A DNA stretch of 64,000 nucleotides from Parcubacteria group bacterium (lineage in GTDB: Bacteria; Patescibacteriota; Patescibacteriia; Buchananbacterales; UBA6539). How positions within the stretch are numbered: the stretch's first letter is position 1; the number at the start of each line of letters is the position of its first letter. Below the pieces are notes generated by a model, which saw only the letters and a list, made by a program, of their open reading frames with translations, did not search any database and was not told the DNA's origin. Shown here in pieces: positions 37,903 through 38,773 of the stretch. A program made the translations under genes and the position numbers. The stretch spans positions 227-64,226 of the forward strand of contig NYZP01000030.1 of NCBI GenBank assembly GCA_002687175.1, read 5' to 3'.

Positions 37903-37926
37903 AATAAAAAATACCTCGTCAAGAGG
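37903..37926 (-). terminator. intrinsic terminator of rnpB (minus strand)
   Basis: minus-strand CCUCUUGACGAGG hairpin followed by UAUUUUUUAUUU. Confidence 0.6.
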
Positions 37927-37931
37927 AATTT

Positions 37932-38686
37932 TTTATTGTCCAAGCAAACTGATAAGCCGAATTTTGTATTCCCTCACTTTTTCTAAAAGTGATGGATGAT
38001 GATCATCTATCTTGACTGTTTGTTGCCAAACAGCTCATGCTGCTTACCAAATTTAGCATTGCACCAGGTAGAGTTTACCACGACATCCTGTCACCAGGAG
38101 CCGAGTTAAGAAGCGTTACGCTGAAGGGATATCCCGTATTCAGCACAGCACACCTTAACACTTTTCACATTTGGCCAGCGCTACGCGCTGAAAATTATAA
38201 GTCCAAAATCACAAATCACAAATAATTTATTTGGAATTTAATGTTTTGAATTTTGAATTTGCAGTGCGCAGCACTGACTTGTATAGTCTCTGTGGAACTG
38301 GTCCTCTTTTACCGTTACCAGCAAAAGGGTGGGCGTTACCCACTACCGCTTTATGGTGTTCGGACTTTCCTCCCCCCACTTTCTAAATTCTATTATTTGT
38401 CTATACTTTTTTGAATACGCTTTTTTAAATGACCATAACTTCCTTTAAACTGTTTTAATGATCTTTCTCTTTTTTGTGCATCCTCTTTAAATTTATAGGC
38501 CTCGTAATAAACTAATTCTAAAGGCCTAAAATTTTTAGTAAATTTTGATTCACCATTTGTATGCTCTTTTACTCTTCGCTGTAAATTATTTGAATATCCA
38601 ATGTATAATTTACCATCTTTGAGTTTTAAAACATACATATAGAACATAGAAAGTGGGGGGCGATCATCTAGCTTACTTAGACAATT
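37932..38686 (-). ncRNA. rnpB: RNase P RNA, bacterial type A, with a ~275-nt insertion in P3 that contains the GIY-YIG ORF
   Basis: minus strand: P4 5' GGAGGAAAGUCCGAACACC (38355-38373), GGUAACGCC / ACAGAGA / GGUAAACUCUACCUGGUGCAAUGCUAAAUUUGG blocks colinear with the E. coli M1 RNA sequence as recalled from memory (no alignment was run), P4 3' ACAAAAUUCGGCUUA (37953-37967), P1 UUGUCUAAGUAAGC (38671-38684) pairs with GUUUGCUUGGACAA (37936-37949), P2 GAUGAUC/GAUCAUC, P3 arms CCCCCCACUUUCU (38648-38660) and AGAAAGUGGGGGG (38372-38384). Confidence 0.85.
38393..38647 (-). CDS. GIY-YIG nuclease superfamily protein (YhbQ/UPF0213-like), encoded inside rnpB P3 loop
   Basis: 84 aa; MFYMYVLKLKDGKLYIGYSNNLQRRVKEH GIY-YIG motifs; ATG directly follows the P3 5' strand. 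Confidence 0.75.
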   Translation of the reverse strand: MFYMYVLKLKDGKLYIGYSNNLQRRVKEHTNGESKFTKNFRPLELVYYEAYKFKEDAQKRERSLKQFKGSYGHLKKRIQKSIDK

Positions 38687-38689
38687 GCT

Positions 38690-38718
38690 ATGTTATCATA
38701 AAAATAATACTTTGTCAA
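38690..38718 (-). promoter_or_regulatory. rnpB promoter TTGACA-17-TAACAT (minus strand)
   Basis: plus-strand TGTCAA 38713-38718 and ATGTTA 38690-38695; predicted TSS a few nt before P1. Confidence 0.5.
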
Positions 38719-38773
38719 GAGTTAAGTTGATTTTTAAAGGGTTTTCTGCTACTATAAGGCTAATCAAAACCCT

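What the first reader, a model, noticed from the sequence alone, without database searches (positions are those of the whole stretch)
37932..38720. RNase P RNA gene carrying a complete GIY-YIG nuclease ORF in the loop of helix P3
Read on the minus strand, the type-A RNase P RNA is recognisable from the universally conserved blocks (P4 5' strand GGAGGAAAGUCCGAAC, GGUAACGCC, ACAGAGA, GGUAAACUCUACCUGG...AAAUUUGG, P4 3' strand ACAAAAUUCGGCUUA) and hand-pairable P1, P2 and P18 helices. The two arms of P3, CCCCCCACUUUCU and AGAAAGUGGGGGG, are about 275 nt apart. The whole interval between them is an 84-codon ORF for a YhbQ/UPF0213-type GIY-YIG protein, and its AUG is the first triplet after the 5' arm. 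P3 is the known insertion-tolerant helix of RNase P RNA, but I cannot confirm from memory that a protein gene inside it has been described. Either a GIY-YIG (homing-endonuclease-like) element invaded rnpB, or the organism makes a bifunctional RNA (ribozyme plus mRNA). The promoter TTGACA-17-TAACAT sits just upstream of P1, so the ORF has no independent promoter.
Basis: partly seen in the sequence, partly recalled or inferred. Interest (0 to 1): 0.9.

Follow-up and report, generated by a model that had tools for sequence, protein, structure and literature searches.

The report
Nuclease gene nested inside RNase P RNA
In this candidate-phyla-radiation (CPR) bacterium, the gene for the RNase P ribozyme carries a complete, selectively maintained gene for a small GIY-YIG nuclease in the tip of helix P3, enclosed by a long stem; this cassette recurs in other stable-RNA genes of related bacteria, and I found no published report of it in RNase P RNA.

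Summary
On the minus strand (about 38682 to 37938) lies a type-A RNase P RNA. Its P1, P2 and P3 5' strands sit upstream of an 84-codon GIY-YIG (UPF0213/Slx1-like) ORF. The rest of the ribozyme follows the ORF.

Rfam's default hit (38395-37937, 120 bits) deletes P3 and mispairs P1/P2, so it is an artefact of the 263-nt insertion. In 13 related rnpB genes, P1 and P2 pair across the ORF with compensatory changes. Relatives found by protein search have different P3 arm sequences, yet each has 18-21 perfect pairs around the ORF.

The ORF is under strong purifying selection and keeps the catalytic residues. Its divergence tracks that of the flanking housekeeping genes. Relatives show frameshifted, truncated and ORF-less versions.

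The same "long stem + ORF" cassette occurs in rnpB P12 and P15-17 and in 16S rRNA. It also occurs directly 5' of tRNA and tmRNA genes.

Best reading: a GIY-YIG cassette of the intervening-sequence kind, co-transcribed with rnpB. Whether it is cut out (giving a two-piece ribozyme) or retained is not resolved. This is a new variant of a known kind, since GIY-YIG insertions are already known in CPR rRNA genes.

The parts
38690..38718 (-). rnpB promoter: -35 TTGACA (38718-38713), 17-nt spacer with TG, -10 TAACAT (38695-38690). It is the only promoter upstream of the ORF.
   Evidence: Best match (10/12, TG present). TTGACA-17-TAnnnT lies at the same distance from P1 in L001, L004, L006 and L020.
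38669..38682 (-). P1 5' strand (GUCUAAGUAAGCUA)
   Evidence: Pairs 14/14 with 37952-37938, with a one-base bulge at 37951. All 9 aligned P1 pairs show compensatory changes across 13 rnpB genes.
38662..38668 (-). P2 5' strand (GAUGAUC)
   Evidence: Pairs 7/7 with 38004-37998. In the alignment, 100% of cells are paired and 5 of 7 pairs show compensatory changes.
38639..38660 (-). P3 5' arm, extended (CCCCCCACUUUCUAUGUUCUAU). It contains the start codon.
   Evidence: 22-nt inverted repeat, 91% complementary. It closes the minimum-free-energy fold.
38393..38647 (-). 84-codon ORF for a single-domain GIY-YIG nuclease (UPF0213/Slx1-like). It fills the P3 loop.
   Evidence: Pfam PF01541, E = 1.5e-15. 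PDB profile hit to the UPF0213 protein 1zg2, E = 1.6e-14. AlphaFold pLDDT 89.9; nearest folds are 1zg2 and Slx1. Y5, Y15, G17, R25, H29 and E61 are invariant and E49 nearly so. pN is far below pS.
38372..38393 (-). P3 3' arm, extended (AUAGAAUUUAGAAAGUGGGGGG). It overlaps the last base of the stop codon.
   Evidence: It is followed directly by the P4 5' strand.
38361..38371 (-). J3/4-P4 5' strand (AGGAAAGUCCG)
   Evidence: Rfam alignment with high posterior probability.
37953..38371 (-). Body of the RNase P RNA (P4 5' strand through P4 3' strand, type A)
   Evidence: RF00010, 120 bits against a gathering score of 100, E = 3.8e-36.
38176..38276 (-). Enlarged P12 (imperfect 50-nt palindrome)
   Evidence: Inverted repeat I1. 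Rfam shows a roughly 90-nt insertion in the P12 loop.
37998..38004 (-). P2 3' strand (GAUCAUC)
37970..37996 (-). Extra hairpin between the P2 3' and P4 3' strands (UCCAUCACUUUU-AGA-AAAAGUGAGGGA). Its arms resemble the P3 arms.
   Evidence: Inverted repeat I11.
37953..37967 (-). P4 3' strand (ACAAAAUUCGGCUUA)
   Evidence: Rfam alignment.
37938..37952 (-). P1 3' strand (U-C-AGUUUGCUUG-GAC)
37903..37937 (-). Probable intrinsic terminator (15-bp stem AAUAAAAAAUUCCUC/GAGGUAUUUUUUAUU with a U tail)
   Evidence: Inverted repeat I5, 93% complementary. The simple terminator scan did not call it. A similar hairpin follows P1 in L001, L015 and L020.

Best explanation
What it is (shown, confidence about 0.95). 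The window encodes one transcription unit: rnpB promoter, then P1, P2 and P3 5' strands, then the GIY-YIG ORF, then the P3 3' strand, the rest of a type-A RNase P RNA, and a terminator. The ORF with its enclosing 22-bp stem is one member of a cassette family in CPR/Patescibacteria. Members of the family occupy the tips of helices of stable-RNA genes, or the position just 5' of tRNA and tmRNA genes.

How it most likely works (inferred, about 0.5).
- The ORF is transcribed only as part of the rnpB precursor.
- The long stem brings the two halves of P3 together, so the ribozyme core folds as if the 263-nt loop were absent.
- As in the intervening sequences of 23S rRNA, the stem of about 20 bp is cut by a double-strand-specific RNase (RNase III).
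- Cutting would release the loop as an mRNA with almost no leader. This genome hardly uses Shine-Dalgarno sites anyway.
- It would leave an active RNase P RNA made of two base-paired pieces. One is a 5' piece of roughly 40 nt carrying the P1, P2 and P3 5' strands. The other is the body of about 430-450 nt.

Role of the protein (inferred, weaker). It is an Slx1/UPF0213-like, probably structure-selective, nuclease. It presumably maintains or spreads the cassette at the DNA level, at hairpin-forming sites.

History in this lineage. The cassette is old and vertically inherited, and some relatives have lost it.
For: Architecture.
- Direct reading and repeats.
- Rfam places P1-P3 upstream of a 57-nt P3 insert in the close relative L015, at 179.5 bits.
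- RNAalifold on ORF-spliced sequences predicts P1, P2 and P3 de novo.
- For P1, P2 and P3 together, 93.3% of cells are paired, against 42-54% when partners are slid. Seventeen pairs have changes on both sides, against 2-9. Covariation score is 0.379, against 0.129 or less. No shuffle of 500 reaches these values.
- L035, L090 and L111 were found by protein search, not by P3 sequence. Their arms differ in sequence but form 18-21 perfect pairs around the ORF.

Coding.
- Pfam, PDB and AlphaFold results.
- Catalytic residues are invariant.
- pN is 0.08-0.14 against pS of 0.63-0.73 for the closest pairs, giving dN/dS of 0.03-0.11.

Element-like behaviour.
- Intact ORFs occur in window, L001, L004, L006, L016 and L019.
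- L023 and L024 are frameshifted. L015 keeps a 66-nt remnant that reads MFYGCVIKL*. L020 keeps only the arms.
- The same cassette sits in rnpB P12 (L057) and P15-17 (L038, L084, L089).
- It sits in 16S rRNA with 23-25-nt arms.
- In 24 of 80 loci a tRNA gene starts within 25 nt of the stop codon. In two loci it is a tmRNA gene.

RNA-level stem.
- 46 distinct stems average 20 bp.
- Among non-Watson-Crick positions, 19 are G.U on the sense strand and 6 are A.C.

Expression.
- The only upstream promoter is the rnpB promoter.
- Only 2 of 46 long ORFs in the window have an SD core, so the missing SD is normal here.

Precedents.
- GIY-YIG ORFs in non-intron insertions of CPR rRNA genes, and RNase III-cleaved 23S intervening sequences (PMC11270868).
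- Active M1 RNA complexes reassembled from fragments (PMC11143913).
Against: - There are no RNA data. Cleavage, its enzyme and its sites are inferred only by analogy.
- No RNase III signature was found in the 64-kb window. This is uninformative for the whole genome.
- The start codon lies inside the stem here but 5-20 nt beyond it in L019, L035 and L090. A cut that makes a usable mRNA is therefore not obviously conserved.
- Long vertical persistence under strong purifying selection is not what a purely selfish homing gene is expected to show. It fits a host-beneficial protein just as well.
- The protein is a bare catalytic domain, so a sequence-specific homing activity is doubtful.
- No second copy of the hairpin motif exists in the window.
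Confidence: 0.55

Rival explanations
1. Bifunctional mature RNA. The ORF is not removed. The roughly 745-nt RNA is both the active ribozyme, with a giant P3 extension, and the mRNA of the nuclease. The long stem only insulates the fold of the ribozyme.
For: P3 is an outward-pointing, length-variable helix (my own knowledge). CPR RNase P RNAs are known to have large helix extensions (PMC8172020). Relatives carry 100-150-nt non-coding P3 inserts (L027, L029). This window has a roughly 90-nt P12 insert. Nothing in the sequence demands cleavage.
Against: Homologous cassettes lie inside 16S rRNA, where a translated ORF in the mature RNA is hard to imagine. Translation would unwind the distal 9 bp of P3, because the AUG and the stop codon lie in the stem. 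Stems are kept at about 20 bp, more than is needed merely to nucleate a helix.
Confidence: 0.25
2. Domesticated gene. The protein serves the host, for example in DNA repair or in stable-RNA or DNA-hairpin metabolism like other UPF0213/YhbQ proteins. It is parked inside stable-RNA operons for strong constitutive expression. Mobility is only historical.
For: dN/dS is 0.03-0.25 across all pairs. GIY identity tracks RNase H and RecJ identity, which indicates vertical descent. More than 594 species representatives encode the family. UPF0213 is a widespread chromosomal family.
Against: Close relatives have lost it or carry frameshifts (L015, L020, L023, L024). Position and copy number vary, including tandem copies in L012, L034 and L053. 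The tRNA-linked copies carry 11-12-nt duplications typical of insertion events.
Confidence: 0.15
3. Two separate genes. rnpB starts at 38395, as Rfam reports, and the GIY-YIG ORF is an ordinary upstream gene. The P3-like arms are then chance.
For: Rfam's full-length hit spans 38395-37937 and scores above the gathering threshold.
Against: That alignment has no P3 and a mispaired P1/P2. The upstream strands pair perfectly and covary in 13 genes. L015 is aligned by Rfam in the upstream register, about 60 bits higher. The promoter sits in front of the upstream P1 in all lineages.
Confidence: 0.02
4. Dead rnpB. The insertion inactivated the gene and RNase P function is supplied from elsewhere.
For: None directly. 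Only 64 kb of the genome is visible.
Against: All conserved core blocks are intact. P1, P2 and other helices keep pairing through compensatory changes across ORF-bearing lineages whose synonymous sites are saturated.
Confidence: 0.03

Closest known systems
Insertion sequences of CPR rRNA genes that encode GIY-YIG proteins (Brown et al. 2015 as cited in, and Tsurumaki et al. 2024, PMC11270868)
   Same: Same bacterial radiation. The protein family is related: homologs at 51-54% identity lie inside 16S rRNA genes (L010-L012). The insertions are not introns and sit at the tops of stem-loops. The ORF is enclosed by 23-25-nt inverted repeats.
   Different: The host gene here is the RNase P ribozyme, which that paper does not mention (0 occurrences). 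The paper also does not mention inverted repeats (0 occurrences). It judged GIY-YIG to be sparse and probably recent. Here the cassette is old and vertically inherited.
Intervening sequences (IVS) of bacterial 23S rRNA, cut out by RNase III without religation
   Same: An insertion replaces the tip of a helix of a stable RNA and is flanked by complementary arms that form a long stem. Some IVS carry an ORF (the 23S_rRNA_IVP family is mentioned in PMC11270868).
   Different: The host RNA differs. The ORF here is a nuclease. Processing here is untested.
Ssn nucleases and their NTS/SRM hairpin repeats (Chenal et al. 2025, PMC11893778)
   Same: A single-domain GIY-YIG protein of about 90 aa whose gene is flanked by inverted repeats, an IS-like layout.
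   Different: Ssn repeats are small self-contained hairpins present in hundreds of copies. Here the two arms pair with each other across the ORF, and the motif occurs once in 64 kb. Ssn is assigned to cd10448, whereas this protein is nearest to UPF0213/Slx1. Ssn genes are not reported inside RNA genes.
GIY-YIG homing endonucleases: I-TevI in group I introns, and free-standing SegB in the phage T4 tRNA gene cluster (PMC2330249)
   Same: A GIY-YIG nuclease gene lodged in or next to highly conserved RNA genes. Presence/absence polymorphism, degeneration and loss are seen.
   Different: There is no C-terminal DNA-binding domain (84 aa in total). Rfam finds no intron in the region. The match to I-TevI is only marginal. 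There is no sign of recent horizontal spread.
Slx1 and bacterial UPF0213/YhbQ proteins
   Same: These are the best sequence and fold matches (1zg2, 1ywl, Slx1), with the same catalytic residues.
   Different: Slx1 needs Slx4 and has an extra zinc-finger domain. I know of no report that UPF0213 genes lie nested in RNA genes.
Diverged RNase P RNAs of CPR bacteria (Lui et al. 2021, PMC8172020)
   Same: The paper reports large helix extensions, rnpB genes missed by Rfam thresholds, and the need for manual refolding. The same happened here: five ORF-bearing loci (three distinct sequences, L016 = L025, L031 nearly the same) fell below the gathering score.
   Different: That paper reports no protein-coding insert (0 occurrences of GIY-YIG).

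Membership tests
Bacterial RNase P RNA, type A (Rfam RF00010) | Score at or above the curated gathering threshold, with the conserved P4 strands and core blocks present | tested here: met
   120 bits against 100, E = 3.8e-36, model positions 1-367.
Bacterial RNase P RNA, type A (Rfam RF00010) | P1 and P2 formed by the 5' and 3' ends, and a P3 hairpin between P2 and P4 | tested here: met
   Met only with the strands upstream of the ORF: P1 14/14, P2 7/7, P3 13/13 plus 8. Supported by covariation and by the Rfam register in L015.
Bacterial RNase P RNA, type A (Rfam RF00010) | Catalytic cleavage of pre-tRNA 5' leaders | not testable with these tools
   Requires biochemistry.
GIY-YIG nuclease superfamily (Pfam PF01541) | Domain score above the curated cut-off | tested here: met
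   57.7 bits against 22.6, covering residues 1-70.
GIY-YIG nuclease superfamily (Pfam PF01541) | Catalytic Tyr, Tyr, Gly, Arg, His and Glu residues conserved, and the beta-beta-alpha-beta-alpha fold | tested here: met
   Y5, Y15, G17, R25, H29 and E61 are invariant and E49 is at least 90% conserved in 21 sequences. The AlphaFold model has pLDDT 89.9 with elements E-E-H-E-H-H.
UPF0213 / YhbQ / Slx1-like branch | Significant profile and fold similarity to UPF0213 structures, and a single domain of about 85-100 aa | tested here: met
   1zg2 at E = 1.6e-14 and 1ywl at 9.8e-11. Foldseek ranks 1zg2 first, then Slx1.
Ssn site-specific ssDNA nucleases (cd10448) | Assignment to cd10448, or homology to N. 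meningitidis SsnA | not tested
The paper's supplements are not held.
Ssn site-specific ssDNA nucleases (cd10448) | Gene flanked by copies of a short hairpin repeat that is also dispersed in many copies in the genome | tested here: not met
   The arms pair with each other rather than each forming its own hairpin. The only CCCNCAC...GTGNGGG hairpin in 64 kb is P3 itself.
GIY-YIG homing endonuclease in a self-splicing intron | ORF embedded in a group I or group II intron | tested here: not met
   No intron family matches in the window at gathering score. The flanks are simply the two strands of P3.
GIY-YIG homing endonuclease in a self-splicing intron | Nuclease domain joined to a DNA-binding domain | tested here: not met
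   The protein is 84 aa and the GIY-YIG domain covers residues 1-70.
RNase III-processed intervening sequence (IVS) of stable RNA | Insertion at the tip of a helix, flanked by complementary arms that form an extended stem | tested here: met
   22-nt arms. Perfect arms of 18-21 bp in L035, L090 and L111. 46 stems average 20 bp, with G.U outnumbering A.C.
RNase III-processed intervening sequence (IVS) of stable RNA | Excision by RNase III without religation, leaving a fragmented mature RNA | not testable with these tools
   Needs RNA end mapping or in-vitro cleavage.

The most novel reading that the evidence does not exclude
RNase P RNA in these bacteria is a natural dual-purpose transcript. Either the ribozyme works as two separate RNA pieces after its own precursor has released a nuclease mRNA, or the mature, active ribozyme still contains and is translated through a protein-coding P3 loop. 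The second and stronger reading would make it a ribozyme that is also an mRNA. More broadly, stem-enclosed GIY-YIG cassettes would be a general coloniser of helix tips and 5' leaders of stable RNAs (rnpB P3, P12 and P15-17, 16S rRNA, tRNA, tmRNA). They would also be the origin of many of the unexplained helix extensions in CPR structural RNAs. The probability given is for the stronger reading, retained and translated.
Probability: 0.2. Interest if true: 0.9.

Novelty: new variant of a known kind. Interest (0 to 1): 0.74.

Why it matters
[quoted passage not shown] In the searchable literature I found no report of a protein gene nested in it.
- **A testable prediction.** The finding predicts either a naturally split RNase P RNA or a ribozyme that is also an mRNA. 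Both can be tested with metatranscriptomes or by heterologous expression.
- **An annotation problem explained.** Rfam truncates or misses these rnpB genes, and gene callers extend the ORF through P1-P3.
- **A link between scattered observations.** GIY-YIG ORFs in CPR rRNA insertions, oversized helices in CPR RNase P RNAs, and small GIY-YIG genes next to tRNA genes all fit one cassette architecture, a long stem enclosing the ORF. This suggests how a structure-selective nuclease could target helix tips of RNA genes.

Tried and rejected
- **Rfam boundaries.** I took them at face value at first and then rejected them: P3 is deleted and P2 pairs only 4/7.
- **Spliced sequences.** cmscan cannot be run on spliced sequences with these tools. 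I used natural short-insert relatives instead (L015, L020) and RNAalifold on spliced sequences.
- **Ascertainment bias.** The metagenome scan used the P3-3'/P4 sequence as its pattern, so invariance of the basal P3 pairs in that set is by construction. I corrected this with a protein-based scan of genomes, which gave P3 arms of different sequence.
- **L020 as an empty site.** I considered its hairpin as the uninvaded P3 and rejected that. It still carries the ORF's first codons (ACG UUU UAU GUG), so it is a deletion remnant.
- **Missing Shine-Dalgarno site.** I considered it as evidence against translation and rejected that, because the genome almost never uses SD.
- **Searches of the window that found nothing.** No further GIY-YIG copies, no RNase III signature, and no other hairpin copies.
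- **Ssn membership.** It could not be tested because no sequence was available.
- **NCBIfam.** Only sub-threshold hits.
- **Literature.** Searches for rnpB with intervening sequence, RNase III, homing endonuclease or Patescibacteria returned nothing relevant, or only fungal mitochondrial genomes.
- **Other host RNAs.** An Rfam scan of 20 further cassette loci identified a host RNA in only two (tmRNA). The contexts of the other 18 stay unknown, and 16 more loci of unknown context were not scanned.
Full report
**1. The observation**

- An 84-codon ORF (38647-38393) matches Pfam GIY-YIG at 57.7 bits, against a cut-off of 22.6.
- Its AUG follows CCCCCCACUUUCU directly.
- The complementary AGAAAGUGGGGGG lies 263 nt downstream and is followed at once by AGGAAAGUCCG, the P4 5' strand.
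It includes the start codon and the last base of the stop codon.
- The 289-nt segment folds with this stem closing it: -78.8 kcal/mol, z = -8.55.
- The best promoter match in the region is TTGACA-17-TAACAT with a TG extension at 38718-38690(-). It lies about 7 nt upstream of P1.

**2. Where rnpB starts**

Rfam's RNaseP_bact_a model reports 38395-37937 at 120 bits. The alignment, however, deletes P3 completely. It also builds P1/P2 from the end of the ORF, with marked non-canonical pairs.

The strands upstream of the ORF do far better:
- GUCUAAGUAAGCUA pairs 14/14 with the 3' end.
- GAUGAUC pairs 7/7 with GAUCAUC.

Related loci settle the question.
- The three closest protein homologs fetched with their flanks (65-82% identical) all lie immediately 5' of an Rfam rnpB hit. 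One of them has quite different neighbouring genes.
- A metagenome scan with the P3-3'/P4 sequence gave 19 loci.
- L015 has the same gene neighbourhood as the window but only a 66-nt P3 insert. Rfam aligns it with P1, P2 and P3 in the upstream register at 179.5 bits.
- I removed the ORF from eight ORF-bearing genes and aligned them with five short-P3 genes. RNAalifold then predicted P1, P2 and P3 on its own.
- For these three helices, 93.3% of cells pair, against 42-54% when partners are slid. Seventeen pairs show changes on both sides, against 2-9. No shuffle of 500 reaches the observed values.
- P2, for example, is GAUGAUC/GAUCAUC here, GAUAGCC/GGCUAUC in L019 and GUUGUC/GACAAC in L024.

The 13 basal P3 pairs are nearly invariant in that set. 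That is partly by construction, because the scan pattern contained the 3' arm. A protein-based scan of one genome per species removes this bias.
- L035 has arms CCCCCCACCUUUUACAAU/AUUGUAAAAGGUGGGGGG.
- L090, a Falkowbacteria genome, has CCCCCCACUUAUUAAGCCU/AGGCUUAAUAAGUGGGGGG.
- L111 has CCCCGCUCUUUGGAUUGCAUA/UAUGCAAUCCAAAGGGCGGGG.
- Each pair of arms forms 18-21 perfect pairs around the ORF and ends directly before the P4 strand.

The architecture is therefore real and conserved.

**3. The protein**

- A profile of 21 homologs hits the UPF0213 proteins 1zg2 (E = 1.6e-14) and 1ywl, then Slx1, and I-TevI only marginally.
- The AlphaFold model (pLDDT 89.9) has the GIY-YIG topology. Its best structural matches are 1zg2 and Slx1.
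- Y5, Y15, G17, R25, H29 and E61 are invariant, and E49 nearly so.
- The protein is only the catalytic domain.
- Among nine rnpB-embedded ORFs, pN is far below pS. Window against L004 gives 0.078 against 0.726, a dN/dS of about 0.03. All estimable pairs give 0.5 or less. The ORF is therefore maintained as a protein.
- The absence of a Shine-Dalgarno site is normal for this genome: only 2 of 46 long ORFs have one.

**4. History**

- Intact ORFs occur in window, L001 (a Buchananbacteria genome, L033), L004, L006, L016 and L019.
- L023 and L024 carry frameshifts.
- L015 keeps MFYGCVIKL* and a 66-nt loop.
- L020 keeps only the 22-nt arms around a GUG loop, with ATG changed to ACG.
- Other relatives have short P3 hairpins or unrelated 100-150-nt inserts.
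- GIY-YIG identity to the window tracks the identity of the flanking genes. In L001, RNase H is 75% and GIY 79%. In L004, they are 78% and 82%. In L019, they are 66% and 61%. Correlation with rnpB core identity is r = 0.55.

The cassette is old and vertically inherited, with repeated decay and loss.

**5. The wider family**

More than 594 species representatives, almost all CPR, encode the family. Among the best 80 loci:
- Eight cassettes are inside rnpB. Four are in P3, one is in the P12 loop (L057) and three replace P16/P17 distal to P15 (L038, L084, L089). The Rfam alignments place them there.
- In 24 loci a tRNA gene (mostly Ala, also Ile, Val, Trp) starts within 25 nt of the stop codon. 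The 3' arm runs into the tRNA's first bases, and an 11-12-nt copy of the tRNA 5' end lies upstream of the 5' arm.
- Two cassettes precede tmRNA genes in the same way.
- Several lie in 16S rRNA genes, enclosed by 23-25-nt arms.
- About 55 of the 80 have flanking stems of 16-30 bp, typically CCCCNCAC.../...GUGNGGGG.
- In 46 distinct stems, G.U pairs on the ORF-sense strand outnumber A.C by 19 to 6. If mismatches arose at random, the two would be equally common, and a one-sided binomial test gives about 0.007 (my own calculation). This points to selection on the RNA.
- ORF-less hairpins with the same arms occur elsewhere in these rnpB genes: P12 of L001, the hairpin before the P4 3' strand in L019, and P3 of L038.

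**6. Mechanism**

Shown: one promoter, one transcript, an ORF in the P3 loop, a conserved long stem, and a selected protein.

Inferred: the stem lets P3 form despite the 263-nt loop. By analogy with RNase III-processed 23S rRNA intervening sequences and the non-intron GIY-YIG insertions of CPR rRNA genes (PMC11270868), it is probably cleaved. Cleavage would free the ORF as an mRNA and leave a two-piece ribozyme held together by P1, P2 and P3. Fragment complementation of M1 RNA shows that such an enzyme can work (PMC11143913).

The presence of the same cassette inside 16S rRNA argues for removal rather than retention. No RNA data were available, so retention (a ribozyme that is also an mRNA) remains a live rival.

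The Slx1-like fold suggests a structure-selective nuclease acting on DNA hairpins. That would explain why helix tips of unrelated sequence are the targets. This is speculation.

**7. Comparison and novelty**

- GIY-YIG ORFs in non-intron insertions of CPR rRNA genes are known.
- Oversized helices and Rfam-invisible rnpB genes in CPR are known (PMC8172020).
- Single-domain GIY-YIG genes flanked by hairpin repeats are known as Ssn (PMC11893778).
- None of these papers, nor a 2024 review of RNase P, mentions a protein gene inside RNase P RNA. Targeted searches found nothing.

I rate it a new variant of a known kind.

Noticed in passing
L057 2501-2764; L038, L084, L089 about 2501-2758: The same GIY-YIG ORF with a 23-30-bp enclosing stem sits in other helices of RNase P RNA. 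In L057 it is in the P12 loop. In L038, L084 and L089 it occupies the P16/P17 position distal to P15. These rnpB genes score only 51-117 bits in Rfam.
   Followed up: partly
L077, L037, L087, L049, L073, L053 (ORF ends at about 2755-2770; in L053 at 2121 and 2423); L043 and L051 (tmRNA): Many family members lie directly 5' of tRNA-Ala, Ile, Val or Trp genes, or of tmRNA genes. The 3' arm overlaps the first bases of the mature RNA. An 11-12-nt copy of the tRNA 5' end is repeated upstream of the 5' arm, like a target-site duplication. L053 has two tandem cassettes.
   Followed up: partly
L001 3393-3510; L019 hairpin just before its P4 3' strand; L038 P3; window 37970-37996: ORF-less hairpins with nearly the same arms as the ORF-bearing stem occur at other positions of the same RNase P RNAs. 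In L019 the hairpin reads GCCCCCCACUUUCUAUGAAAGUGGGGG and includes the AUG. They may be remnants of the cassette and a source of the helix extensions seen in CPR structural RNAs.
   Followed up: no
L004 3694-3735: An extra 13-bp hairpin (CCCCGUUAGAAGC...GCUUCUAACGGGG) is inserted in the P1 3' strand of rnpB. It is flanked by CUUG direct repeats and is absent from the other lineages.
   Followed up: no
L027 (P3 region, about 150-nt insert): A different, non-coding P3 insert made of short repeats (GCGGAUnAACGC, AUCAGCGUGCAUC). The same repeats also occur upstream of that rnpB promoter.
   Followed up: no
whole window: The genome has 34.7% G+C and almost never has a Shine-Dalgarno core upstream of long ORFs (2 of 46).
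   Followed up: partly
L111 2501-2869: This P3-embedded ORF has no stop codon before P4 and reads on into the ribozyme, giving 122 codons. This could be a real read-through or a sequencing error.
   Followed up: no
P0002 (L004 3001-3309); L016, L023, L024, L025, L031: Annotation artefacts. A gene caller extended the ORF upstream through the P1-P3 strands, giving 102 aa. Rfam at gathering score misses rnpB altogether in five ORF-bearing loci (three distinct sequences, L016 = L025, L031 nearly the same).
   Followed up: yes
window 38176-38276: P12 of this RNase P RNA is enlarged by an A/U-rich imperfect 50-nt palindrome. L015 has a similar one.
   Followed up: no
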